The notes under the pieces were generated by a model that saw only the letters and a program-made list of their open reading frames with translations, was not told the DNA's origin and ran no database searches. From NCBI GenBank assembly GCA_050246315.1, contig JBFWWG010000014.1, positions 1-64,000 of the forward strand: 64,000 nucleotides of DNA. The letters run 5' to 3'. The position numbers were made by a program, and so were the translations under genes. Source of the DNA: Nitrospiraceae bacterium (GTDB lineage Bacteria; Nitrospirota; Nitrospiria; Nitrospirales; Nitrospiraceae). How positions within the stretch are numbered: position 1 is the first letter of the stretch; every line of letters begins with the position of its first letter. Positions 18,507-49,152 of the stretch are shown one piece after another.

Positions 18507-18725
18507 CCGGCCTCCGGCAGAAGGTCATCACCTGCTTCGACTCAAACTTGCCTAATTCCGGCGCAAGCGCGGAAACCTGTCCAGTTGCGGGATATGCCAC
18601 AGGAACAAGGCGTGACAGGATTGGACGGCTTGGGGAAGGCTGGTCGTCATGCCATCAACCTGAGTCTTCCAGCATTTTCTTTGCCATGGCCCTCGCTCGA
18701 TACGCTATCGGGCGAGGCCAGGGTA

Positions 18726-18765
18726 TTTCAGAAGTGCAAAGGGTCAAAGCACAATGAGCAAAAGG
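18726..18765 (-). repeat. 40-nt pyrimidine-rich tract after the stop of TIR-FGE gene 1
   Basis: ccttttgctcattgtgctttgaccctttgcacttctgaaa; 31/40 identical without gaps to 41733-41772. Confidence 0.8.
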
Positions 18766-20001
18766 TTAGGGGATGTCCTGGACTAGACGAAAGCCCAGGA
18801 AGTTGGAACGGTAGACAGCTCGCTGGCACTCCCGCCTCGACGCAGGCAGAAACCCCTTAGCGAAGTTCCAGGCCCCGCCCCGGATCACGCGGGACTCTTC
18901 TTCTTCGTCATACCAGCTGGCACACCATTCCCACACATTGCCGGCCATGTCATAGCAGCCATAGGGGCTGACCCCATCTGGGTACCGAGTTTTCGGGGTT
19001 GTACGACATATGGATGATTCGCCACTGTTGCACTTGTTCTTCTCAAACTCGTCACCCCATGGATAGATGCGGCCATCCGTGCCCCTCGCTGCCTTCTCCC
19101 ACTCCTGTTCGGTCGGCAACCGTTTGCCTGTCCATGTGGCATAGGCCTCCGCTTCGTAAAAGCTCACGCCAACCACAGGACGATTGGGCTTGTTCCATTC
19201 GATATCATTCCAAGAGACAGGAGACTGGACGCTGTTGTTCGTTTTCCATGCCCAGCCCTCTTGGGACCAGTGCACCTGATCTTGGTACCCACCCGCTGAG
19301 ATGAATACTCCAAATTCCTCATTCACGACGGGGAAGCTGTCGATCCAGTAGTCGTGGTCGATCGTCTCACGACGTTTCTCCTCCCCATATAGAAACGGTC
19401 CCCTCGGCACCAGGACCATGCCTGCGGGGGCCTCGGTTGATTGTGGCTCGATTCGCAGACTGACTGATTGAGTTTCTTTAACCTCCCTGCTGGGGACTTG
19501 GACCTCGGTGTGCTGTTCCGTGCGGTGCTCGTCGAAGAGCTGAATCTGTTTCTTCAGGTAGTCGATCAGCCGGTCCATATCCCGATGAAAATCCGGATCG
19601 GGTCGCACCGCGATGCCGTTGCGATAGGCCAAGTCTTCGATACTCTTGGGGAGTCGCTCAGCCGGTGGAATCGAGGCTCCTCCCACCAGTACCGGAATGA
19701 GTGGGATCCCGCGCTTCAGTGCTGACTCGATTTCGATGCGGACGAAATCCCGTGGGTCTTCCAACCTGGACTTGCCCTTCCCGCCCTTTGTTTTCATCCA
19801 GTCCCGCCCGATCACCGCAAGAAACACCTGGCACTTGGCCACCTGCTCATCCAGATAGGTTCGAAAATCGACACCCAGCGGAATGGAATCGACATCCTTA
19901 AACACTGATTCTCGATCAAATTGTTGGATGAGCCGGTCATACATGCGCCCGGTGACATCGGCGCTATCCTCACGACGGTAGGAAATCAGGATCTTGCTCA
20001 T
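18766..20001 (-). CDS. TIR domain + FGE-sulfatase (C-type lectin fold) protein, soluble; candidate DGR target
   Basis: N-terminus ILISYRREDS...VFKDVDSIPLGVDF...DFVRIEIESAL (TIR_2). C-terminus RLPTEQEWEKAARG, YDMAGNVWEW, RVIRGGAW...LGFRLV. The catalytic cysteines of true FGE are absent. Confidence 0.9.
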   Translation of the reverse strand: MSKILISYRREDSADVTGRMYDRLIQQFDRESVFKDVDSIPLGVDFRTYLDEQVAKCQVFLAVIGRDWMKTKGGKGKSRLEDPRDFVRIEIESALKRGIPLIPVLVGGASIPPAERLPKSIEDLAYRNGIAVRPDPDFHRDMDRLIDYLKKQIQLFDEHRTEQHTEVQVPSREVKETQSVSLRIEPQSTEAPAGMVLVPRGPFLYGEEKRRETIDHDYWIDSFPVVNEEFGVFISAGGYQDQVHWSQEGWAWKTNNSVQSPVSWNDIEWNKPNRPVVGVSFYEAEAYATWTGKRLPTEQEWEKAARGTDGRIYPWGDEFEKNKCNSGESSICRTTPKTRYPDGVSPYGCYDMAGNVWEWCASWYDEEEESRVIRGGAWNFAKGFLPASRRECQRAVYRSNFLGFRLVQDIP

Positions 20002-20063
20002 GGTCTACCAGCGCGTTCCCGGTCCACGAATATAACCACCATCGCAAGCATCGAGACGGCAAA

Positions 20064-20121
20064 AGGCTACTGGTTGCGCAGAAGTGTGTCAACAAGCAGG
20101 CCTGGAGAAATACCAGTATTT
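20064..20121 (-). promoter_or_regulatory. sigma70 promoter plus upstream palindromic box of TIR-FGE gene 1
   Basis: TTGACA-17-TAGCCT (20092-20064); AAATAC-ca-GTATTT at 20108-20121. Confidence 0.75.
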
Positions 20122-32182: not shown

Positions 32183-35143
32183 TTAGGACGGTTGAACGGT
32201 TCGCGGATCGCTCAACGCCGCGGTCGCCTCCGCCTCCTCCCGCAGCCGCTCCTCCCCTTCTTCGGCCGGCATGAACTGTTGAATTCTGGAGTTGGCGCTG
32301 TCCACGACAAAAATGCTGCCGCGCGGGCCGACCGCAATCCCGTATGGGAAATTGAATTGTCCGTCGCCGTTGCCGAAGCCGCCCCATTGCGTGATGAAAT
32401 TGCCCTCCCGATCGAACTTTTCGATCCGGTGGTTGCCGGCGTCGGACACATAGACATCCGCGTTGGCATCAATCGCGATCCCCCATGGATTTCGAAGCTG
32501 TCCTGCCTCGAACGCGGTCACACTGCTGGCATGGCCGGCGTCGACGCTGCCGCCCCACTTGGTCAACAATTGGGGCAAGACGTTGGTGCTGGTATCGAAC
32601 TTCTGGATGCGGTGGTTGCCCATGTCCACGACGTAGACGGAGCCATCGGATTCATCGACGCAGATGCCGCGCGGGAAATAAAACTGCCCGTCGTGGTTCC
32701 CGAAGCTACCCCAGGCCATGATGAACTCGCCCGTGAGGTCGAACTTCTGCACGCGGAAATTCGCGCTGTCCACCACGTATACGTATCCTCGCACCCGATC
32801 GACGGCAATTCCCCATGGCGCGTTGAATTGCCCCTCGCCGTTGCCCCGCGATCCGAATTTCATGAGGTAGCCGCCCAGCTTGCCGTCAAATTTCTGCACA
32901 CGATGGTTGTTCGTATCCACGACCCAGACGTCGCCCTTCGCGTCGCAGGCAATCCCCGTCGGATTGTGAAAGCTCCCGTTGGCCGATCCGAACGATCCCC
33001 AGAGAATGATGAAATTGCCCGCGCTGTCGAATTTCTGGACGCGATTGTTGCCGTTGTCCACCACGAACACGCCGCCTTGCTGATCGACGGTCAGTCCGTA
33101 CATCGGCGGCATGAACTCGCCGCCATGTAATAAGGACGCCCCACGTCCCGGCTTGCCCCACTTCGACACGCACAGGTACCCCGACGTATTGACCAGGATC
33201 GTGGCGCTGGCCGGGACCGAAATGTTCTGTCCCACATCCTTGAACCACACATAGATGGTCTTCTGTCCGTCCCCCGGGGAGAGCACGAACGGAATCGTCG
33301 CCCCGAACTTCATGGCCGGCTCGACCTCGACCCATCCGGGGCTGCCCGCCATCGGGGCCATCGGATTTTCCGAAATGTAGTAGGCCCCAACGCCCGAATC
33401 CACATCGTTGGCCGAAATCGTCACGATGACTTCCGGCGTATTCGTCATGAATGCGCCGTGGTTGAGCACGGCAAAGGGGGTCTGCGGCGCAGTGATGTCG
33501 ATCAGCACCGGGGTCTCCGTCACTTCCGCGGAGAGTCCGCTCTCAAGCTCGCCGTCATAGACGGCCGTCAACGCGTAGTAATAGGTCGTATCGTTGCTCA
33601 ATCCGCTATGGACGTAGGGATTCTCCACTCCCTCGATCTTGGTGGCCCCCTCCTTCGTGAAGCCAGAATTGGTGCTGAAGTAGAGATTGTAGGAGACGGC
33701 GCCCGGCATCTCCATCCAGCTCACGGTGACCTCCGTATCACCGGCCTTGGCCACGACGCCGCGAGGCGTCTTGTCGTCGGCGGTTTCTTCCCGTTTTGCC
33801 TGGAGTGTCCGGTTCAGTTCTTCCTCCGTCGGCACGTACTTGATGATGCGATTGTTGCCGCTGTCCACCACGAACACATGGCCTTCCTTGTCGATGGCAA
33901 TGCCGGACGGAAAATTGAGCTGCCCCTCGCTCAGGCCGCGATTGCCCCAGGAGCAGAGAAAGGTCCCGTTGCCGTCGAACTTCTGGATGCGGTGATTCTC
34001 CTGATCCACGACGTAGACATTCCCCATGGCGTCGCAGGCCACGCCCCAGGGACGTTTGAATTGCCCCGGGCCGCTCCCCTCGCGTCCCCACTTCGTCAGA
34101 AAGCTGCCGCGGGCGTCGAATTTCTGAATGCGGTGGTTTCCTTCTTCCGACACATAAATATTGCCGACGAAATCAACCGTGATACCGCGGGGGTAGAAAA
34201 ATGCGCCGTCATAGCTGCCGTCGCGTCCCCACTTGAGAAGCGGCGTGCCGTCGTGAGTGAACTTCTGAATCCTGGCGTTGCTCGTGTCCGATACGTACAG
34301 GTTGCCTTCACGGTCGGTGGCCACGCCCCAGGGCACGTCGAAACGTCCGATATCGGCCCCGCGCCAGGCAAATCCGAATTTGCCCCAGGTGTGCATGTAG
34401 TTGCCGTCCCCATCGAACTTCTGAATGCGGTTGTTGCCGCTGTCTGCCACATACACTTCGCCGGCGGAGCCGACGGCCACACCCCGCGGATAGTAAAATT
34501 CCCCCTCAGCGGCCCCCGCACTACCGCCCCACCGAGCGAGAAACCTTCCCGTCTTGTCGAATTTTTGAATGGAATGATTGTCGGTGTCGCCCACGTAGAT
34601 GTAGCCGTCCTTGTCAAGAGCAACCCCGGTTGGGGAGTTGAATTCGCCGTCATCAACTCCTTCGCAGCCGATGATCTGGGCCACGAGGTACGGCGAAGGA
34701 ATCGTCATGACTTCTTGCGACTCCGGGCTCTCCCCTTTCTGCGTCACCACCGTCACGACGTAGTGATAGCAGGTACCGTTGGCGAGGTCCTCATGCAGGT
34801 AGGGTGAGGAGGGTCCTTCGATGCAAGTCCCTTTTTCTTTCGTCACGCCGATTTTGGTCTTGAAGTCCTGAGGGCCCGCAATCGGCCGCGTCAATTCCGA
34901 AAACTTGATCTGCACGCCCTTGGTCGTCATGTAGTAGACGTTGTAGTACATGGCGTCTGCAACAGAATCCCAGGTCAACAACACACGACCGTTCCCAGGC
35001 TGGGCCTTGAGGTTCATCGGCGCCGGTGGAAGTTCGTCTTCCGCCGTCACTTCGCCCGTCCCCCACTCCTCCGAGCTGGACTGGACGGAGAGTCGTAAAC
35101 GGGATCGGTGGTCTTCTTCCTCAAAAAGCCAGCTGAGCCTCAT
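32183..35143 (-). CDS. 986-aa protein: FN3 - NHL beta-propeller - FN3 - Ig-like - NHL beta-propeller
   Basis: About 12 repeats of GxFxxPxGxAxDxxGxxYVxDxxNxRIQKF; two FN3 modules (LTWDSVADAMYYNVY...YYVVT; VSWMEMPGAVSYNLY...YYYALTA). No signal peptide seen. Confidence 0.9.
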   Translation of the reverse strand: MRLSWLFEEEDHRSRLRLSVQSSSEEWGTGEVTAEDELPPAPMNLKAQPGNGRVLLTWDSVADAMYYNVYYMTTKGVQIKFSELTRPIAGPQDFKTKIGVTKEKGTCIEGPSSPYLHEDLANGTCYHYVVTVVTQKGESPESQEVMTIPSPYLVAQIIGCEGVDDGEFNSPTGVALDKDGYIYVGDTDNHSIQKFDKTGRFLARWGGSAGAAEGEFYYPRGVAVGSAGEVYVADSGNNRIQKFDGDGNYMHTWGKFGFAWRGADIGRFDVPWGVATDREGNLYVSDTSNARIQKFTHDGTPLLKWGRDGSYDGAFFYPRGITVDFVGNIYVSEEGNHRIQKFDARGSFLTKWGREGSGPGQFKRPWGVACDAMGNVYVVDQENHRIQKFDGNGTFLCSWGNRGLSEGQLNFPSGIAIDKEGHVFVVDSGNNRIIKYVPTEEELNRTLQAKREETADDKTPRGVVAKAGDTEVTVSWMEMPGAVSYNLYFSTNSGFTKEGATKIEGVENPYVHSGLSNDTTYYYALTAVYDGELESGLSAEVTETPVLIDITAPQTPFAVLNHGAFMTNTPEVIVTISANDVDSGVGAYYISENPMAPMAGSPGWVEVEPAMKFGATIPFVLSPGDGQKTIYVWFKDVGQNISVPASATILVNTSGYLCVSKWGKPGRGASLLHGGEFMPPMYGLTVDQQGGVFVVDNGNNRVQKFDSAGNFIILWGSFGSANGSFHNPTGIACDAKGDVWVVDTNNHRVQKFDGKLGGYLMKFGSRGNGEGQFNAPWGIAVDRVRGYVYVVDSANFRVQKFDLTGEFIMAWGSFGNHDGQFYFPRGICVDESDGSVYVVDMGNHRIQKFDTSTNVLPQLLTKWGGSVDAGHASSVTAFEAGQLRNPWGIAIDANADVYVSDAGNHRIEKFDREGNFITQWGGFGNGDGQFNFPYGIAVGPRGSIFVVDSANSRIQQFMPAEEGEERLREEAEATAALSDPRTVQPS

Positions 35144-40281: not shown

Positions 40282-40303
40282 TCAGCTCCGACAGCGCAGC
40301 GGC

Positions 40304-40477
40304 GGGGCCGTCGGCCTGGCCGACCGGCCCCGATCGCCTCACCTAGGCCCTCTCTTCAACCTCCCCGATTTGTCGGGAGGCCGGGAAACAGGCTCATGGA
40401 CACCCGCTGCCTCACCCGGCCTGTCCGTGAATAGACCGGCTCTGGGCCGGTGCCATCCACTGAGCCGTGCGGGTGGA
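40304..40477 (-). ncRNA. structured spacer 3' of the template repeat (putative DGR-RNA priming region)
   Basis: Three stem-loops at 40416-40439, 40360-40380 and 40304-40331, directly after the template-like segment; no credible ORF. Confidence 0.6.
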
Positions 40478-40597
40478 CTGGATCAGACGGAAGCCGATGA
40501 TGTTGTTCCGGTAGTTGGCATCGCCCCAGCTCCGGTCTGACGTCCGCAGGTTCTCCGGTTTGTTGTTCCAGGACCCTCACCGGATCAGGCACCGGCC
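40478..40597 (-). repeat. DGR template-repeat (TR)-like sequence
   Basis: Reads GRCLIR*GSWNNKPENLRTSDRSWGDANYRNNIIGFRLIQ with six AAC codons. Non-coding (in-frame TGA, no upstream FGE body). Gaplessly collinear with the 3' ends of both TIR-FGE genes. Confidence 0.85.
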
Positions 40598-40824
40598 GAC
40601 TCTTGGCATGCCCTCCCATTGAACAGCGTAGACCGTTAGGCTGCCAGACCATCTGGTGCATCAGGGGCACCTGGACCAGATAGCATCCTCTGGCTACCAT
40701 GCGGTCTGCGAAGCGTTTGAGGGAGGACGTCTCCCATGTTAAAGGCAAGGCGAACAACAAGACCGTCGGGATCTCACGTGGAGTATGGGAGGGGGCGAGG
40801 ACTAATCCGAGATACGACACTCTT

Positions 40825-40947
40825 ATGGAGGAACTGGAAGACCTTGAGGATCTCCACCGGGAGAAGGCCAAGAAGGAGAAAGGATCTCCATTGGAGGAAG
40901 TGCTGAAGGAATATGAAGTGCCTCACCACGTCCAGCTTGATCGGTGA
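40825..40947 (+). pseudogene. antitoxin (Phd/RelB-like) C-terminal remnant
   Basis: MEELEDLEDL...AKKEKGSPLEEVLKEY; the stop overlaps (TGATG) the start of a RelE-like fragment. Confidence 0.55.
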
Positions 40948-41102
40948 TGGCTTACGAGGTCATCTTCACCCCTCGTACCAGACGAACGTTCCTTCACCTC
41001 CCGACGACTATTGCTCGCAAAATCGCACAAGCCCTTCAGACACTTGCGGACAATCCGAGATCACATCTGTCGATCAAATTGTCCGGCGGAGAAGGATACC
41101 GT
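40947..41102 (+). pseudogene. RelE/ParE-family toxin, 3'-truncated
   Basis: MAYEVIFTPRTRRTFLHLP...LADNPRSHLSIKLSGGEGYR, then runs into the antisense of brnA; the usual xRVGDYRIIY half is missing. Confidence 0.7.
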
Positions 41103-41381
41103 TCAGGCAACCATGATCCGTTTCATTCTCTTGACCTCCTGCTCCAGTCGATTCAGACGGGACTCCATCGTGGCTCGCCTGTGTTGGCCTGTTATCAAGA
41201 GGCGGCCCAGCAAGGTCTCATATGGCACACCGGTCTGCCGAGCAGCCTGTCTCAGGCCTCGGAAGCTGCTAGAATCGATATTGATTGTGATTCGTACAGC
41301 CTTCTGCCGCGCAAATGCAGCCCGCAGCTTGGCCGTGCCCGCCTCATCCACCTTCAGGCGTTCGAGCTTTGGTTCTCTCAT
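41103..41381 (-). CDS. BrnA/CopG-like ribbon-helix-helix antitoxin
   Basis: RITINIDS...LRQAARQTGVPYETLLGRLL; overlaps the end of brnT. Confidence 0.75.
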   Translation of the reverse strand: MREPKLERLKVDEAGTAKLRAAFARQKAVRITINIDSSSFRGLRQAARQTGVPYETLLGRLLITGQHRRATMESRLNRLEQEVKRMKRIMVA

Positions 41382-41640
41382 CGTACAACCTCCGAAACCT
41401 TCGCCATTCGGCTGATCCAATGATACGAATCTTGCTGCCCCTCATGGTAAACCGTGTGGTGAGGACCCGCCCCGTCGAGGTTTGCCCCAGCCAGAAAAAC
41501 CGATTCTCTTTCAGAGAATGCTTCGCGTCAACGAGCTGAACCCCCTTCTGATCGAAGAACGATTCCACCGCCTCTGAAAATGTCACGCCGTGTTTGCGGA
41601 TATTTATCAGCTCCTTTGATATATCCCACTCGAATTCCAT
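41344..41640 (-). CDS. brnT: BrnT-family (DUF497) ribonuclease toxin
   Basis: MEFEWDxxKxxxNIRKHGVTFSEA...F.D...HS..ENRF..LG...IRII. Confidence 0.88.
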   Translation of the reverse strand: MEFEWDISKELINIRKHGVTFSEAVESFFDQKGVQLVDAKHSLKENRFFWLGQTSTGRVLTTRFTMRGSKIRIIGSAEWRRFRRLYDERTKARTPEGG

Positions 41641-41732
41641 CTACGCAGCCATACTCGATTGGCATGGATCATACCATAGGCCACAGTGCCTCCGTCCTTC
41701 TTGTTCTCCTGAGAAATGGGCGGGGCAATTTC

Positions 41733-41772
41733 TTTCGGAAGGGTAAAGGGTAAAAGGACAAAGGGTAAAGGG
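41733..41772 (-). repeat. 40-nt cccttt(a/g) repeat tract after the stop of TIR-FGE gene 2
   Basis: ccctttaccctttgtccttttaccctttacccttccgaaa. Confidence 0.85.
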
Positions 41773-43185
41773 CTAGGGCTCAAGGTCCTGGACAAGACGG
41801 AATCCCAGGTTGAGGAACCGGTTGCCGGCACCGTCCCTGCTCCGGATCGACGCACGGAGGCCCTCCGGTACGTCGAACCAGGACCCGCCGCGGATCACAC
41901 GCCGGCCGCAATCGCCTTTGCCCCCCTCGAGCCAAGCTGAGCCATCAGTCGGCGCCCCCTGATAACTGTTGTGCCAGCAATCCTCCACCCATTCCCAGAC
42001 ATTGCCACTCATGTCATAGAGGCCGACGCTGTTGGGCTTTTTGCTCCCAGCCGGCGACGAGCGATCTGCCCTGAACACCGCATAGTCCGGCAGTAACTTT
42101 TCATCCGAGGTCCCAGCCCAGGTTTCTGCCTTGCCTCCGCTTCGCGCCGCATATTCCCATTCCGCTTCCGTCGGCAATCGATAGCGCTTGCCTGTCTGTT
42201 GCGACAACCACCCGCCATAAGCCTTGGCATCCTCCCACAACACATTGATCACAGGCCGTCGACCGCGGCCCCAAGCCTCATCGTGCGGCAGGGACCGCTT
42301 GGTCTCCTCGGCGAATCGGTCATACTCCTCAAACGTGACCTCGCAGGTACCAATGGCAAACGGTTTGACATTGACAGTGTGAACCGGTTGCTCATCAGTA
42401 CTGGCGCTCCCTGCGTCGGGCCCCATTTGAAATTCTCCGCCTTCTACCAGAATCATTTCCGGCTCGAACCCCGGAAGAGTTCCACAAGCTGAAGAATGGC
42501 GTGTCACAGTCGCCGACGCACTCAATTCATCCAGTCCCCACCGCGCCAATCCCCATGCGCCGAGCACAAGGATGATCAGCACCATCGCCAATGTGCCAAA
42601 CCTGACACCTCGGCCAATCCCCGTGCGCCAAGGGAGCCCTTTTTCGCCAGCCAGCAGAGCCGGCCCTGTTTCTTCGGCGCGGGCCGCATGCTGCGGCTTT
42701 GGAGTTTTCAGAGCCGGCTCCGGCTTATCCGACTCTTCTTGTAGTTGCGATGCAGTATGTGCTTCACGTCCTACCGAACGATCACGAATAGCTTGAAAGA
42801 GCTTCTGAATCGCCATGTCATCATCGAGACCGCTGCGCAGATCCACCCACTGGTAGATAGGAGAGCCGAACGGTTTCTCAGCGCCTGGCAGCAATACTGA
42901 AATGATGGGAAAGCGTTGGGCACCTCGGTTAGCCGCGTGATGCTGCAGCGCCAGATATAGTGCGACCTGCCGTGAGCCCATCTCTACCCGCCCAATGCAG
43001 AGAGCCACCACTCGGTATTGGGCCAGCATCTCCTCCAATTCCTGGGGCCAGGGCTTCCATGGCTCCCGACGCTCGGAAAGCACCACCTTGAGCCTCCGTG
43101 TACGCAACTGCCAGCCGAGTGCCTCTACCTGTGCACGATCGTACGGGTGGTAGCTCAGAAGGACATCGACCTGATCAGCCTCCAC
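41773..43185 (-). CDS. TIR - transmembrane - FGE-sulfatase (C-type lectin fold) protein; DGR target with variable region 41788-41907
   Basis: DVLLSYH...LxxxL...VVALCIG...PIISVLLPG...WVDLR (TIR_2-like); TM helix FGTLAMVLIILVLGAWGLA; RLPTEAEWEYAAR, YDMSGNVWEWVEDCWH, RVIRGGSW...LGFRLVQD. Confidence 0.9.
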   Translation of the reverse strand: MEADQVDVLLSYHPYDRAQVEALGWQLRTRRLKVVLSERREPWKPWPQELEEMLAQYRVVALCIGRVEMGSRQVALYLALQHHAANRGAQRFPIISVLLPGAEKPFGSPIYQWVDLRSGLDDDMAIQKLFQAIRDRSVGREAHTASQLQEESDKPEPALKTPKPQHAARAEETGPALLAGEKGLPWRTGIGRGVRFGTLAMVLIILVLGAWGLARWGLDELSASATVTRHSSACGTLPGFEPEMILVEGGEFQMGPDAGSASTDEQPVHTVNVKPFAIGTCEVTFEEYDRFAEETKRSLPHDEAWGRGRRPVINVLWEDAKAYGGWLSQQTGKRYRLPTEAEWEYAARSGGKAETWAGTSDEKLLPDYAVFRADRSSPAGSKKPNSVGLYDMSGNVWEWVEDCWHNSYQGAPTDGSAWLEGGKGDCGRRVIRGGSWFDVPEGLRASIRSRDGAGNRFLNLGFRLVQDLEP

Positions 43186-43234
43186 GTGTTTTCTACCAGT
43201 TCAATCCGGTCTGAAGATGATCGAAATTGGCACA

Positions 43235-43292
43235 AGGCTACTTTTTAGGCAAGGTCATCTCAACTAGCAGGTCCGTGGAAATACCAGTATTT
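43235..43292 (-). promoter_or_regulatory. sigma70 promoter plus upstream palindromic box of TIR-FGE gene 2
   Basis: TTGAGA-17-TAGCCT (43263-43235); AAATAC-ca-GTATTT at 43279-43292, with the same spacing as at gene 1. Confidence 0.75.
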
Positions 43293-43346
43293 AGCGGAGC
43301 TTCGGCGAATAGAAGGGATTGAATGGCCTTACCTGCTCAAGGCCTC

Positions 43347-46395: not shown

Positions 46396-47886
46396 ATGAA
46401 ACCATCCGTCGTTCTCCACGATCCGCTCACCTTTACGGATGACATCCTCGTCCAACGGGCCTGGCGCATCCCCGACCTAGTGATCTACCAACAGGGAGAG
46501 GACGAATGGTGGGTCGCGCCCCTCGACGATAACCTTCCGCTGGTCCGCCTGAATCGGGTCGGCATGGAAATGCTTGGCTCGATGACCGGCCATATCACGG
46601 TTGCCGCCTTGGTAGAGAAATACGCGAAATGGATCTGCGGACCGGACGGCCAGCCGGGCCTCTGGCATCTCCAGCGTTGGGCCCTACCTAACTACTCCCT
46701 CTGCTACTTCGGCACGGAACCGCCCGGCGGCCATCGGCACAAGGCCAAGTGGGATGTCCTCTTACAGCAGATCCGGGAAGGTTGGTCCGGCCAAGAGGGA
46801 TTCGAAGGGGAAGCGCACCTCGCCGATTTCCATGTGGAGGAGCTCAAGGAAGCGGCCGAGGACGACGGCCATTTCGACCTCATCGAGACCACCGTCTCCC
46901 ACCTGTTTCGCGAACCGAGCGAGGCGCTGGCGGGGCTGACCTACGGCCGGTTGTTGATCAAGCAACTGCGCCGGCTCGGGTGGTTCACGCCGAAGCCCAA
47001 AGTCATCCTCGAAGTCGGCGGCGGGCTTGGCTATGTCGCCCGGGAAATGGGCAAGGATCTGTTGCCCTTCGAGAAGCAAGGCATCCAGTATCTGTCGCTC
47101 GATGTGACAAGGCCCTTCCTCTCGTTGCAGCAGCGACGTGCAAAGGAAGGCGGGTGGGCCTGCACCGGAACCCAGGCCAACGGGGAGTTCCTTCCGTTGA
47201 AGGACCACTCGGTCGATCTCGTGATTGACAACGAGAACATGGCCGATATGACGCCCGCGAAACTGTCGCGACAGGAACTCCTGACCGGAATAGGTGAGAC
47301 GCCGTTGCATCAGGAGGCGCTGGACTGGATTCGCCGGCTGAGGCTGCCGATCGAAGCCGATCCGCCCGAAGAGGTCATCTTCAACCTTGGGCCATTCCGA
47401 TTTGTTGCGGAACTCTGGCGGGTCCTCAAGCCGGGGGGACGGGCGTTTCTGACCGAGTTCGGCATCGAGGAAGGTTGGCCGGCTCCAGTCAAACTCCCCG
47501 GCCATACGGAATATGAAGTGCAATACACCCATTTGCGGCAGGCCGTGCGATGGCTAGGTTTTCAGGAACGGTATCTGCCGCTGCCGCCATTCCTCGGCAT
47601 CAAACCGGATACCAAGGTACTCTGCACGGGCGCGGCCTATACGATTCAACGGTTTTGCCAGGCCTTAGGGAAACCCTTTGCAGTCCGAGCCTACACTGAA
47701 CAAGAGCTTGCCGCCACGATCAAAGACATGCTGCCGAAGGTCATCGGCTGCCATTACCACGACATCGCCGACCCGGCCTGGTTCGGCCTGATCGATTTCA
47801 AGGTCCTGCTGCTGGAAAAGCCCGGCGGCGCGCCGCGTCCCGCCTATCAGAACGCCTCAGGCTATCGGTGGTATTCGCAGAAATAG
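46396..47886 (+). CDS. class I SAM-dependent methyltransferase with N-terminal extension
   Basis: ILEVGGGLG, LPLKDHSVDLVI, WRVLKPGG. Confidence 0.85.
   Translation: MKPSVVLHDPLTFTDDILVQRAWRIPDLVIYQQGEDEWWVAPLDDNLPLVRLNRVGMEMLGSMTGHITVAALVEKYAKWICGPDGQPGLWHLQRWALPNYSLCYFGTEPPGGHRHKAKWDVLLQQIREGWSGQEGFEGEAHLADFHVEELKEAAEDDGHFDLIETTVSHLFREPSEALAGLTYGRLLIKQLRRLGWFTPKPKVILEVGGGLGYVAREMGKDLLPFEKQGIQYLSLDVTRPFLSLQQRRAKEGGWACTGTQANGEFLPLKDHSVDLVIDNENMADMTPAKLSRQELLTGIGETPLHQEALDWIRRLRLPIEADPPEEVIFNLGPFRFVAELWRVLKPGGRAFLTEFGIEEGWPAPVKLPGHTEYEVQYTHLRQAVRWLGFQERYLPLPPFLGIKPDTKVLCTGAAYTIQRFCQALGKPFAVRAYTEQELAATIKDMLPKVIGCHYHDIADPAWFGLIDFKVLLLEKPGGAPRPAYQNASGYRWYSQK
47780..47882 (+). repeat. 103-bp direct repeat, copy 1 (3' end of the methyltransferase)
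   Basis: Matches 48885-48987 with 2 mismatches. Confidence 0.95.
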
Positions 47887-48524: not shown

Positions 48525-48773
48525 ATGATCAACCTCAAATACTCTCTCGTCATCGAGGCGACGGATGATCCCACCTTCTTTGGTTTTTACTCCCCCGACC
48601 TCCAAGGATTTACGGGAATTGGCCATTCCATCGAGGATTGCCTGTACCAGGCCAGGTGGGGGATGGAGGAACACCTGGCGCTTCTAAAGGAAAAAGCGCT
48701 GCCTGTTCCTGCGCCGAGTACCAATCCCACCATCGTGATTCAAAACGAAAAACGAGTCGGCCAAGCGGTGTAA
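48525..48773 (+). CDS. hicB: HicB-family antitoxin
   Basis: YSLVIE...YSPDLQGFTGIGHSIEDC...LPVPAP; GGGAGG RBS. Confidence 0.85.
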   Translation: MINLKYSLVIEATDDPTFFGFYSPDLQGFTGIGHSIEDCLYQARWGMEEHLALLKEKALPVPAPSTNPTIVIQNEKRVGQAV

Positions 48774-48884
48774 TAATAGTTGCGTCGGATCGCGGTTTCT
48801 TGGCTGCCGGCCGACAAGCTTCAACACGATTCCTGTTCCTGCCGACATTCGACATTTCCTCCGAGTCATCTGCCCACCGCCCCC

Positions 48885-48987
48885 GGTTCGGCCTGATCGA
48901 CTTCAAGGTCCTGCTGCTGGAAAAACCCGGCGGCGCGCCGCGTCCCGCCTATCAGAACGCCTCAGGCTATCGGTGGTATTCGCAGAA
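48885..48987 (+). repeat. 103-bp direct repeat, copy 2 (displaced gene 3' end)
   Basis: Encodes the same FGLIDFKVLLLEKPGGAPRPAYQNASGYRWYSQK peptide and ends in TGA at 48991. Confidence 0.95.
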
Positions 48988-49152
48988 GTGAAGCAGGAGG
49001 CCGGGCTCGCCGGCTTCCTTGCTCCCGGAACCCGCACGATCAGAATGTGCTCGTTCGACGGCCGCAGTTGAAGCCAGCGAGTCCGGCCCCAAAATAGTGC
49101 CAGGAAGAAAAGATGTGGACTCCTGGACGCTCGCACTCAAGTGCGGCTCGCT

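What the first reader, a model, noticed from the sequence alone, without database searches (positions are those of the whole stretch)
41773..43185. Toll-like-receptor-shaped protein: TIR - TM helix - hypervariable lectin-fold domain
Seen: an N-terminal TIR_2-like domain, a single hydrophobic helix (FGTLAMVLIILVLGAWGLA) and a C-terminal FGE-sulfatase domain lacking the FGE catalytic cysteines. The variable-region codons opposite template AAC positions all retain third-position C (ttc, gac, ggc, ggc, ttc, ctc), the footprint expected of AAC mutagenesis. The TIR segment that normally carries the NADase glutamate reads MGSRQVALYLAL with no Glu. Known: TIR-containing DGR targets are described in some bacteria, and bacterial TIRs often act in immunity as NADases. 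Inference: a transmembrane sensor with a diversifiable periplasmic binding site and a non-catalytic, adaptor-type cytoplasmic TIR. It could pair with a catalytic TIR such as the one at 18766-20001.
Basis: partly seen in the sequence, partly recalled or inferred. Interest (0 to 1): 0.8.

Follow-up and report, generated by a model that had tools for sequence, protein, structure and literature searches.

The report
Hypermutating membrane receptor with dead TIR
A Nitrospira-like bacterium carries a membrane-anchored receptor whose outer binding pocket is rewritten by a retroelement encoded elsewhere in the genome, while its inner TIR signalling domain has lost the residue needed for enzyme activity; the general kind of system is already described, but this version has unusual details.

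Summary
ORF 41773-43185 (-) encodes 470 aa: a TIR_2 domain, one strongly hydrophobic helix, and an FGE-sulfatase/C-type-lectin (CLec) domain that lacks the FGE cysteines and ends in a variable region (VR 41788-41908).

The window has no reverse transcriptase. The nearby TR-like copy (40478-40598) differs from the VR at 35 sites, 15 of them not adenines. The real template lies on another contig (C3), beside intact bAvd and RT genes: 18 of 18 mismatches fall at template adenines (P about 4e-13).

A second recorded version of the protein is identical except at 12 residues, all in adenine-bearing template codons. The gene is therefore a remote (trans) DGR target inside a decayed cassette that keeps an orphan TR; avd-RT is replaced by a BrnT toxin-antitoxin pair.

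The TIR has Ala75 where 156 of 162 related TIR domains have Glu, and Arg72 where 153 have Trp, so it is probably non-catalytic.

The gene at 18766-20001 is also a TIR-CLec paralog, not a plain soluble TIR.

TIR- and STAND-CLec DGR sensors, trans targets and periplasmic CLec topologies are already in print (Doré 2024; Kaur 2021). I rate this a new variant of a known kind.

The parts
41773..43185 (-). Gene for the 470-aa TIR - TM - CLec variable protein (GTG start)
   Evidence: ORF. Pfam TIR_2 and FGE-sulfatase. AlphaFold model with mean pLDDT 77.5. A version identical outside the VR is on record elsewhere (P0001).
42766..43167 (-). TIR domain (about residues 7-140). The codon for Ala75, at the position of the family's catalytic-type Glu, is 42961-42963.
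   Evidence: Pfam E 5e-12. Alternating strand/helix pattern in the model. A profile of 27 relatives hits solved TIRs: 3h16 at 3.4e-10, plus 7uxr, 6wt6, 3jrn, AbTIR and SARM1. Glu is present in 156 of 162 related TIR domains and Trp in 153 of 162; the query has Ala75 and Arg72 plus a 1-residue deletion.
42544..42600 (-). Predicted single transmembrane helix (residues 196-214). Three Arg lie just before it on the TIR side.
   Evidence: Kyte-Doolittle 19-mer mean 2.30. Isolated helix 192-224 between low-pLDDT linkers. Hydrophobic helix and juxtamembrane motif are conserved in relatives P0005, P0006, P0019 and P0026. The N-in topology is inferred from the positive-inside rule.
41791..42462 (-). 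C-type-lectin-fold (FGE-sulfatase) domain, non-enzymatic
   Evidence: Pfam E 9.6e-56. Foldseek: PvdO 5hha 2.4e-21, FGE 2q17, TvpA 2y3c 5.1e-15. The FGE Cys pair is absent.
41788..41908 (-). Variable region (VR), templated by the TR on contig C3 (C3:244824-244944, minus strand)
   Evidence: 18 of 18 mismatches at template A, P 3.7e-13. 12 of 12 residue differences to P0001 lie in template codons with A at position 1 or 2. 7 of 7 listed contig variants lie at template A sites.
41731..41772 (-). Conserved element 3' of the VR (four CCCTTT-like repeats), shared with all paralog targets. The GC-rich 16-bp hairpin that follows in 5 of 6 paralogs is missing here.
   Evidence: Flank alignment. DNA folds: -12.8 kcal/mol here against -19.8 to -27.8 in the other five.
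41103..41640 (-). BrnT toxin gene (41344-41640) and an overlapping small ORF (41103-41420) that occupy the place of avd-RT in the relic cassette
   Evidence: Pfam BrnT_toxin E 1.7e-18. No similarity to the C3 avd-RT between window 41731 and 40625. The small ORF has no Pfam hit.
40303..40625 (-). Orphan template repeat (TR-like core 40478-40598) with its conserved 3' flank. It is not cognate to any VR in the assembly.
   Evidence: 80% identical over 325 nt to TR_C3 plus flank. Against the five VRs of intact DGR targets it shows 14-27 non-A mismatches; the decayed VR of the 411-aa paralog shows 30. Exact-match contigs in runs X5 and X7.
43229..43293 (-). Shared upstream element with the palindrome AAATAC-NN-GTATTT (43279-43292), also found upstream of four other CLec-target loci
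   Evidence: Repeat D9. Alignment of upstream regions. 11 genomic copies against 0.04 expected. The simple sigma-70 scan does not call it a promoter.
18580..20121 (-). Paralog locus: 411-aa TIR-CLec gene (18766-20001) without a TM helix, a decayed VR, a relic of hairpin plus the first ~70 nt of avd (18580-18799), and the same upstream palindrome (20108-20121)
   Evidence: Pfam. KD maximum 1.18. 78% identical over 226 nt to the C3 cassette. 44-51 mismatches to any TR. Palindrome.

Best explanation
The gene encodes a membrane-anchored variable protein of a diversity-generating retroelement (DGR) and is served in trans.

Shown:
- An intact bAvd-RT-TR cassette sits on contig C3 of the same genome.
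- Its template matches this gene's VR at every non-adenine position.
- Two recorded versions of the gene differ only at adenine-templated codons.

Inferred mechanism: RT and Avd copy the C3 TR RNA into adenine-mutagenised cDNA. That cDNA replaces the last ~120 nt of the gene and rewrites about 12-18 codons of the lectin-fold binding surface.

Inferred topology: the TIR is cytoplasmic, one TM helix follows, and the CLec domain lies outside the cytoplasmic membrane. The variable pocket would then sample extracytoplasmic ligands such as phage or foreign-cell surface molecules.

The TIR has lost the Glu and Trp that nearly all its relatives keep at the catalytic motif. It most likely cannot hydrolyse NAD+ on its own. 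If it signals, it does so as an assembly or adaptor surface.

The locus is a decayed cis cassette: target - (avd-RT replaced by BrnT/A) - orphan TR. The VR probably became compatible with the C3 template through gene conversion with the 3' end of the C3 target.

The protein is one of six CLec paralogs in this genome. The others are STAND, TIR-STAND and DUF4062-STAND forms and a TM-less TIR form. They share a 3' recognition element and an upstream palindrome.
For: Template and machinery:
- TR_C3 to window VR: 18 of 18 mismatches at A. TR_C3 to VR_C3: 17 of 17.
- RT_C3 is 360 aa with YVDD and IGNLTSQ. A bAvd gene (Pfam 9.4e-17) lies between it and the C3 target.
- No RVT_1 among the 62 window ORFs scanned. 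The whole genome has two RT matches, both on other contigs.

Variation:
- P0001 is identical to the window protein except at 12 residues, and all 12 lie in A-bearing template codons.
- In DNA runs X5 and X7, contigs match both flanks with 0 differences, while 191-nt contigs over the VR carry 17 differences. 7 of 7 listed variant sites are TR_C3 adenines.

Architecture: Pfam, hydropathy, the structure model and fold search agree.

TIR: Ala75 and Arg72 against Glu in 156 of 162 and Trp in 153 of 162 related domains. The family's Glu aligns with the Glu of the W..E motif in solved TIRs 3jrn and 6wt6.

Relic cassette and conversion tract.

Paralogs:
- Pfam architectures of the paralogs.
- TM-like helices in the C3, C4 and C5 targets.
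- The C4 target is a clean trans target of TR_C5.

Same type elsewhere:
- Nitrospira MAG loci L025 and L028 have avd-RT-TR cassettes with 23 of 23 and 18 of 18 A mismatches.
- 17 of 21 listed TIR+CLec homologs have a hydrophobic helix between the domains.
Against: - Only two VR alleles are firmly on record. The P0001 allele recurs in several data sets, so diversification may be rare or past, not ongoing.
- The runs were assembled contigs, which drop rare variants and include paralogs. Within-population A-site heterogeneity is not shown.
- The window VR lacks the 16-bp hairpin present beside 5 of 6 paralog VRs, which may lower homing efficiency.
- Topology rests on hydropathy, flanking charges and an isolated model helix. 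No dedicated TM predictor was run.
- The TIR's loss of activity is inferred from sequence. Glu68 lies three residues before helix C, and its possible role was not evaluated.
- PADLOC has no model matching the protein.
- No close ortholog of the TIR-linker-TM half was found in the 40 related genomes searched.
- Any immune role is inferred from the domain repertoire and from published proposals. It has not been tested.
Confidence: 0.8

Rival explanations
1. Cis DGR: the TR-like copy 1.3 kb downstream (40478-40598) is the template for this VR.
For: It is the only VR-like repeat in the window (D8). 20 of its 28 adenines are mismatched to the VR, a significant A bias (P 8e-8). It keeps the conserved TR 3' flank.
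Against: 15 of the 35 mismatches are at non-A positions. No RT or Avd lies in the window. TR_C3 explains the VR with 0 non-A mismatches.
Confidence: 0.03
2. Decaying relic: the protein no longer signals. Its VR is still overwritten only because it retains sequence matching TR_C3, so the diversification is a by-product.
For: The TIR has lost two near-invariant residues. The local avd-RT is lost and a toxin-antitoxin pair sits in its place. The hairpin is lost. No orthologs of the N-terminal half were found in the 40 relatives searched. The neighbouring 411-aa paralog shows what full VR decay looks like.
Against: The 470-codon frame is intact in both recorded alleles, with no other substitution. 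The TIR still gives a confident fold (blocks with pLDDT up to 94). The upstream shared element is retained. Contigs from an RNA library match the gene body exactly, though this is weak because DNA carry-over is not excluded.
Confidence: 0.17
3. The TIR is still an enzyme. It would use another acidic residue (for example Glu68), or it would be active only in a composite site with a second TIR, so the protein is a self-sufficient sensor-effector.
For: The fold and most other conserved positions (G65, G70, A79, L80) are kept. TIR active sites in solved assemblies are formed across subunits (recalled, not tested here).
Against: Glu occupies the motif position in 156 of 162 relatives, and none of those 162 related domains has Ala. 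The adjacent Trp is also lost and a residue is deleted.
Confidence: 0.1
4. The hydrophobic helix is not a membrane span, and the CLec domain senses ligands in the cytoplasm, as proposed in print for STAND-FGS sensors.
For: Kaur et al. 2021 describe FGS sensors as intracellular (PMC8195603, passages read). Two paralogs (the 411-aa protein and the C18 target) have no hydrophobic helix.
Against: The 19-mer hydropathy of 2.30 is typical of a membrane span. The helix is isolated between disordered linkers. It is conserved in position in 17 of 21 TIR+CLec relatives. Doré et al. 2024 also predict periplasmic CLec domains for some targets (PMC10907252, passages read).
Confidence: 0.07

Closest known systems
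DGR-diversified STAND/TIR 'antigen sensors' of multicellular bacteria (Thiohalocapsa PB-PSB1 and relatives; Doré et al. 2024, PMC10907252, passages read)
   Same: Both have a C-terminal CLec domain with a DGR VR and N-terminal conflict-system domains, including TIR and nSTAND1. [quoted passage not shown] Some CLec domains are predicted to be periplasmic. A PB-PSB1 CLec protein is 50% identical to this CLec domain (L052).
   Different: This protein has no STAND NTPase and no MoxR/vWA context. The TIR joins the CLec through a single TM helix and lacks the catalytic-position Glu. The host is a Nitrospira-like nitrifier. I did not see their SI figures S10/S11, which may show similar architectures.
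NTPase-FGS counter-invader systems (Kaur, Iyer, Burroughs, Aravind 2021, PMC8195603; Kaur 2020, PMC7159879; passages read)
   Same: An FGS (lectin-fold) sensor is fused to N-terminal effectors such as TIR. The RT and four-helix accessory protein lie nearby or elsewhere in the genome. One organism carries several paralogs with different N-termini, as in this genome.
   Different: Those papers describe the sensing as intracellular and centre on the NTPase. Here four of the six paralogs have a TM-like helix before the FGS domain, and the window protein has no NTPase.
Cyanobacterial DGR variable proteins and remote variable proteins (Vallota-Eastman et al. 2020, PMC7517822, passages read)
   Same: Multidomain CLec variable proteins, some with TIR-like N-termini and some with TM or signal sequences. 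Remote targets exist outside the cassette.
   Different: Those proteins are mostly cytosolic kinases or caspase-like proteins. No Glu-less TIR and no decayed cassette with an orphan TR is described in the passages I read.
Treponema denticola TvpA (PDB 2y3c), structural archetype of a CLec/FGE-fold DGR variable protein
   Same: Same fold (Foldseek E 5.1e-15; phmmer 1.2e-20). The VR is at the C-terminal end after the 'RGGSW' motif. No FGE cysteines.
   Different: TvpA has no TIR domain. From recall, it is a surface lipoprotein. Here the anchor is an internal TM helix with a cytoplasmic domain.
Animal Toll-like receptors
   Same: Ligand-binding ectodomain, single TM helix and a cytoplasmic non-catalytic TIR that signals by assembly (recalled knowledge). 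The profile of this TIR family also hits TLR1, TLR2, TLR6, MyD88 and MAL TIR structures weakly.
   Different: The orientation is inverted (TIR N-terminal). The ectodomain is a lectin fold, not LRR. Diversity comes from a retroelement, not a germline repertoire. Only the TIR is homologous, and no adaptor is known.

Membership tests
DGR variable (target) protein | VR/TR pair whose mismatches fall at template adenines | tested here: met
   TR_C3 against the window VR: 18 of 18 mismatches at A among 32 A in 121 nt, P 3.7e-13.
DGR variable (target) protein | DGR-type reverse transcriptase, usually with an Avd accessory gene, in the same genome | tested here: met
   RT_C3 is an intact 360-aa ORF with RVT_1 (8.1e-19), YVDD and IGNLTSQ. 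bAvd scores 9.4e-17. The labelling of GxxxSQ as a DGR-RT hallmark is recalled. Both genes lie on contig C3, not in the window.
DGR variable (target) protein | VR at the C-terminal end of a CLec/FGE-sulfatase fold | tested here: met
   The VR covers residues 427-466 of 470.
DGR variable (target) protein | 3' recognition elements: an IMH-like identical 3' end and a downstream hairpin/cruciform | tested here: inconclusive
   The last 24 nt of the VR are identical to TR_C3, and the CCCTTT-repeat element is shared with all paralogs. The 16-bp GC hairpin present in 5 of 6 paralogs is missing here.
DGR variable (target) protein | Observed variability restricted to A-templated sites | tested here: met
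   12 of 12 residue differences to P0001. 7 of 7 listed contig variants. Only two alleles are firmly documented.
TIR-domain NAD+ hydrolase | TIR fold | tested here: met
   Pfam TIR_2 5e-12. The family profile hits solved TIRs, 3h16 at 3.4e-10. The model shows the alternating strand/helix pattern.
TIR-domain NAD+ hydrolase | Conserved catalytic Glu in helix C (W..E motif) | tested here: not met
   Ala75 sits where 156 of 162 relatives have Glu, and Arg72 where 153 have Trp. The column aligns with the Glu of SSWCLDEL in 3jrn and SEWSKFEM in 6wt6. That this Glu is the catalytic one is recalled from the plant and SARM1 TIR literature.
TIR-domain NAD+ hydrolase | NAD+ cleavage activity | not testable with these tools
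   Needs an enzyme assay.
Formylglycine-generating enzyme (FGE/SUMF1) | Catalytic, copper-binding Cys pair | tested here: not met
   In the alignment to 6muj and 2q17, the 'LCHDSYC' stretch falls on a 3-residue gap and Cys-free VR sequence. The last Cys of the protein is C426.
STAND-CLec antigen sensors (nSTAND1/NACHT + CLec) | Central STAND NTPase domain | tested here: not met
   Pfam finds only TIR_2 and FGE-sulfatase in the 470-aa protein. nSTAND1 is present in the paralogs on C3, C4, C5 and C18.
Toll-like receptor | LRR ectodomain, type I orientation, TIR at the C-terminus | tested here: not met
   The ectodomain is a lectin fold and the TIR is N-terminal. The resemblance is in layout only.

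The most novel reading that the evidence does not exclude
The Glu-less TIR is not debris. It would be a bacterial adaptor-type TIR on a hypermutating outward-facing receptor. When ligand binds the periplasmic CLec pocket, these TIRs would cluster and nucleate or gate the catalytic TIR-STAND-TM-CLec paralogs of the same genome. The closest is the C4 target, 45% identical in the TIR and with Glu intact. That would be a receptor/adaptor division of labour like TLR-MyD88, joined to an anticipatory repertoire supplied by a retroelement. A corollary is that DGR target sets are rewired by gene conversion, so that one RT-TR can adopt orphaned receptors.
Probability: 0.15. Interest if true: 0.85.

Novelty: new variant of a known kind. 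Interest (0 to 1): 0.55.

Why it matters
DGR-diversified lectin-fold sensors fused to immune-type domains have been proposed as bacterial analogues of adaptive antigen receptors, but none has a demonstrated signalling mechanism.

This locus offers a minimal version: TIR, one TM helix and a CLec domain, 470 aa in all. Four things make it useful:
- The template is defined.
- Two natural alleles exist.
- The predicted topology is outward-facing.
- The TIR is naturally 'dead'. That makes one question testable: is TIR catalysis needed in these sensors, or does the TIR act as a scaffold?

The locus also documents how a target survives loss of its own RT. It has apparently been re-tuned to another cassette's template, and it appears to remain a substrate without the usual hairpin.

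Limits: the class itself is already published, and every functional statement here is an inference.

Tried and rejected
- Solved structures: the TIR segment as a single sequence gave nothing useful (only a stathmin-like chain at E 6.2). The 27-sequence profile was needed.
- Earlier scan notes: one note was returned, about an integron element. It is unrelated.
- Rfam at E up to 1 on the window TR region and the C3 cassette: only sub-threshold chance-type matches (miRNA, antizyme FSE, P10). No family covers the conserved TR 3' flank.
- PADLOC: no model matches the 470-aa protein.
- Simple sigma-70 scan: it does not call the shared upstream element a promoter.
- Repeat D7 (47767-47882 / 48872-48987, 94%): tested as a second TR/VR pair and rejected. 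The 7 mismatches are not A-biased.
- Orphan window TR as template for another target: rejected as a clean template, with 14-27 non-A mismatches to the five VRs of intact targets and 30 to the decayed paralog VR.
- P0001's cluster, searched for further alleles: one member is the window's own protein and the other is a fragment with the P0001 allele.
- Read laying: all four runs were assembled contigs. Depth, rare variants and transcript ends cannot be read from them. Contigs also break at the VR edges, which could reflect either multiple alleles or repeats shared with paralogs. RNA run X15 had no cover over 41223-41648.
- Related genomes: the N-terminal 240 aa found only TIR-level matches (44-49% identity) in 2 of the 40 other genomes searched. 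The Glu loss could not be dated.
- Complex prediction of TIR-TIR pairs was considered and not run. A generic TIR-TIR pass would not discriminate between partners.
Full report
**What is at the coordinates**

The minus-strand ORF 41773-43185 is real. It is 470 codons long with a GTG start. Pfam assigns TIR_2 to residues 8-129 (E 5e-12) and FGE-sulfatase to residues 242-465 (E 9.6e-56).

It has the highest 19-residue Kyte-Doolittle mean in the protein, 2.30.

I built an AlphaFold2 model from a 47-sequence alignment. Mean pLDDT is 77.5. The model shows:
- an alternating strand/helix TIR at about residues 7-140;
- a low-confidence linker at 143-195;
- an isolated helix at 192-224;
- a confident lectin-fold domain, with 10-residue blocks mostly above pLDDT 85.

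Foldseek places the C-terminal domain with PvdO (5hha, 2.4e-21), formylglycine-generating enzymes, and the DGR protein TvpA (2y3c, 5.1e-15). In the sequence alignment to FGE 6muj, the enzyme's Cys-x4-Cys stretch falls on a gap and Cys-free sequence of the query. The domain is therefore the non-enzymatic CLec form used by DGR targets.

The window holds one VR-like repeat pair, 40478-40598 against 41788-41908, at 71% identity. Of its 35 mismatches, only 20 are at adenines of the TR-like copy.

None of the 62 window ORFs of 90 aa or more has an RT domain. The whole assembly (30 contigs; the window is contig C14:1-64000) has two RVT_1 matches, on contigs C5 and C3. Each lies next to TR-like sequence.

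I put all eight copies in register. The copy next to the C3 RT (C3:244824-244944) differs from the window VR at 18 positions, and all 18 are template adenines. It differs from its own neighbouring VR at 17 positions, and all 17 are adenines. The hypergeometric probability of 18 of 18 falling on the 32 adenines in 121 nt is 3.7e-13.

The C3 cassette is complete:
- a SIR2_2 gene (ThsA-like in PADLOC);
- a 639-aa nSTAND1-CLec target;
- bAvd (Pfam 9.4e-17);
- a 360-aa RT with YVDD and IGNLTSQ;
- a TR whose 5' end overlaps the last 14 nt of the RT ORF, stop codon included.

The window gene is therefore a remote target served in trans.

**Direct evidence of A-site variability**

The large protein collection holds a 470-aa protein, P0001, that is 97% identical to the window's protein. 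Setting aside the GTG-start artefact at residue 1, it differs at 12 residues between 437 and 459. All 12 lie in codons where TR_C3 has A at position 1 or 2. The other 457 residues are identical.

I laid contigs of three DNA runs from three studies and one RNA run on 40300-42400. In X5 and X7:
- contigs match 40547-41762/41764 and 41908-42400 with 0 differences;
- the VR interval is covered by 191-nt contigs carrying 17 differences.

The seven best-supported variant positions listed inside the VR are all TR_C3 adenine sites. Together they reproduce the P0001 allele.

There are limits to this evidence:
- These are assembled contigs, laid at 80% likeness, and paralog contigs are mixed in.
- 270 further differences were not listed.
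- P0001's cluster adds no third allele.

What is shown is at least one adenine-specific rewriting event between otherwise identical strains. Continuous hypermutation is not shown.

**The locus is a decayed cassette**

I compared the C3 cassette with the window:
- C3 246992-246441 (the CLec 3' half plus the element after the stop codon) matches window 42282-41731 at 76%.
- C3 244971-244655 (TR plus 3' flank) matches window 40625-40303 at 80%.
- The 1.47 kb of hairpin, avd and RT in between has no counterpart in the window.

In that position the window carries a BrnT toxin gene (Pfam 1.7e-18) and an overlapping small ORF.

The window's TR-like copy is thus a true but orphaned TR. It shares the long conserved flank that follows TR_C3 and TR_C5. 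Against the five VRs of intact DGR targets it has 14-27 non-A mismatches, and 30 against the decayed VR of the 411-aa paralog, so it matches no VR of the assembly cleanly.

All six CLec paralogs share a run of CCCTTT-like repeats after the stop codon. Five of them follow it with a 16-bp GC hairpin. The window VR lacks the hairpin's 3' arm and folds weakly, at -12.8 kcal/mol against -19.8 to -27.8 for the others. Both recorded alleles sit on identical hairpin-less flanks. This suggests, but does not prove, that homing works without the hairpin.

Identity between the window gene and the C3 target rises from 40-70% to 83-100% from about 42015 to the VR end. The TR homology ends at 41908, so the tract extends roughly 100 nt beyond it. 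I read this as a gene-conversion tract that made the VR compatible with TR_C3. This is an inference.

**The TIR**

A search of 1.84 billion representative proteins with residues 1-150 found 1348 relatives at E up to 0.001. The best are about 45-48% identical, and many are N-termini of 800-1500-aa proteins.

An alignment with 23 short relatives and three TIRs from this genome shows the motif G-x-G-P-W-Q-x-R-E. The query reads G-S-R-Q-(gap)-V-A at that place.

Across 162 TIR domains from the 150 best representative proteins, Glu occupies the query's position 75 in 156 domains, and Trp occupies position 72 in 153. The query has Ala and Arg.

A profile of the 27-sequence alignment hits solved TIR structures: 3h16 at 3.4e-10, 7uxr, TIR-STING 6wt6, plant 3jrn, AbTIR and SARM1. 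The family's W..E aligns with SSWCLDEL of 3jrn and SEWSKFEM of 6wt6. That this Glu is the NADase catalytic residue is recalled from the plant TIR and SARM1 literature and comes from no call here.

In the TIRs of 17 related CLec proteins from other genomes, the automatic alignment shows Glu in 12. Three more (L033, L051, L061) are an insertion-bearing type, and by eye they carry W/F-x3-E a few residues on. The other two, L058 and L090, are misaligned or truncated and could not be read.

The 411-aa paralog is of that insertion-bearing type and reads F-V-R-I-E. It probably keeps its Glu, but its TIR is only 22% identical to this one. The closest TIR in the genome is that of the C4 target, 45% identical with the motif intact.

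The loss of Glu and Trp is therefore specific to this protein. I infer that it is not a stand-alone NADase.

**Family context**

This genome has six CLec paralogs:

| Location | Length | Architecture |
|---|---|---|
| C3 | 639 aa | nSTAND1-CLec |
| C5 | 962 aa | TIR-nSTAND1-CLec |
| C4 | 869 aa | TIR-nSTAND1-CLec |
| C18 | 905 aa | DUF4062-nSTAND1-CLec |
| window | 470 aa | TIR-TM-CLec |
| window | 411 aa | TIR-CLec, no TM |

The C3, C4 and C5 proteins also have a hydrophobic 19-mer (KD 2.0-2.3) between the STAND and CLec domains. An outward-facing CLec domain is therefore predicted for four of the six.

TR_C5 explains the C4 target cleanly: 15 A mismatches and no non-A mismatch after the first 7 nt. 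It explains the C18 target with 4 non-A mismatches in the core. It explains its own neighbouring VR with 8 non-A mismatches.

Other observations on relatives:
- Among the 120 best homologs listed, 21 combine TIR_2 and FGE-sulfatase, and 17 of those have a hydrophobic helix between the domains.
- 79 related loci were kept from the genome collection, mostly Nitrospira and Nitrospirales MAGs but also Nitrosomonas and Thiohalocapsa PB-PSB1. In 17 the target has a TIR, and 18 have an RT within 4 kb.
- Five are short TIR-TM-CLec proteins without STAND: L033, L047, L056, L058 and L061.
- Nitrospira loci L025 and L028 have local TR/VR pairs with 23 of 23 and 18 of 18 adenine mismatches. The Methylococcaceae TIR-TM-CLec locus L047 has 21 of 30.
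- With the N-terminal 240 aa as query, only TIR-level matches (44-49%) appeared, in 2 of the 40 other related genomes searched.

**What is already known**

I searched the paper library three times and read passages, not whole papers.

- Doré et al. 2024 (PMC10907252) describe DGRs that diversify CLec targets carrying nSTAND1/NACHT, TIR, CHAT and other domains. [quoted passage not shown] They predict cytoplasmic, periplasmic or secreted locations.
- Kaur et al. 2021 (PMC8195603) describe STAND-FGS proteins with N-terminal TIR and other effectors. The RT and four-helix accessory gene lie nearby or elsewhere, and there are several paralogs per organism. They call the sensing intracellular.
- Kaur et al. 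2020 (PMC7159879) and Vallota-Eastman et al. 2020 (PMC7517822) give related accounts. The latter lists TIR-like N-termini and some TM predictions among cyanobacterial variable proteins.
- The Roux et al. preprint (10.1101/2020.04.01.020958) notes that most cellular targets are membrane-anchored.

In these passages I did not find a STAND-less TIR-TM-CLec target, a Glu-less TIR on such a target, or a decayed cassette with an orphan TR. Their supplementary figures and tables were not seen and may hold such cases.

**Verdict**

The feature is real, and it is a DGR target.

The most likely mechanism is a type-II-oriented membrane receptor. Its extracytoplasmic lectin pocket is rewritten in trans by the C3 retroelement, and its cytoplasmic TIR acts, if at all, as a non-catalytic assembly surface.

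I rate it a new variant of a known kind. It is of moderate interest because it gives a compact, testable case for how these sensors signal and how targets are re-adopted after losing their own RT.

Noticed in passing
window 43279-43292 and 20108-20121; also G000 C5:64179, C18:27652, C3:249525: The palindrome AAATAC-NN-GTATTT occurs 11 times in the genome against 0.04 expected. Five copies lie 94-239 nt upstream of CLec-target loci. In four of those (both window genes, C5 and C18) it is followed by a conserved TTGACA-like hexamer (TTGAGA at 43279) and GTAGCCT. The other six lie near a caspase+CHAT pair, a pentapeptide protein, a PIN/RHH pair, a secretin, an IS integrase and a DUF2914/ppk region. 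This looks like a shared operator for a conflict-gene regulon. The simple sigma-70 scan does not call a promoter there.
   Followed up: partly
window 41103-41640 (-): A BrnT-family toxin gene and an overlapping small ORF sit exactly where avd and RT lie in the intact paralogous cassette. A toxin-antitoxin module has apparently replaced the retroelement's enzymes.
   Followed up: partly
window 40303-40625 (-); G000 C3:244655-244971; C5:68706-69014: All three TR copies are followed by about 200 nt of conserved, GC-rich sequence, 77-80% identical between copies. This may be the structured part of the DGR RNA. No Rfam family matches it.
   Followed up: partly
G000 C5:67032-67152 (VR of the C5 target) against window 40478-40598: The last ~23 nt of VR_C5 match the window's orphan TR (one mismatch, at an A) better than the adjacent TR_C5 (3 non-A mismatches). 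Overall VR_C5 has 8 non-A mismatches to its own TR. This could be ancestral polymorphism or past use of another template.
   Followed up: no
window 47767-47882 and 48872-48987: A 116-nt direct repeat at 94% identity duplicates the 3' end of the methyltransferase-like gene 46396-47886 into the end of a short ORF, 48638-48991. The mismatches are not adenine-biased, so it is not a DGR pair.
   Followed up: partly
G000 C3:248399-249286 (L011:8399-9286, -): A SIR2_2 gene (ThsA-like in PADLOC, 2.1e-23) lies directly upstream of the nSTAND1-CLec target of the C3 DGR, with 4 nt of overlap. It is a likely effector partner of that sensor.
   Followed up: no
window 32183-35143 (-): A 986-aa protein with about 12 NHL repeats and an fn3 domain produces the many 141-147-nt direct repeat families D1-D6. 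These are ordinary repeat-protein periodicity.
   Followed up: no
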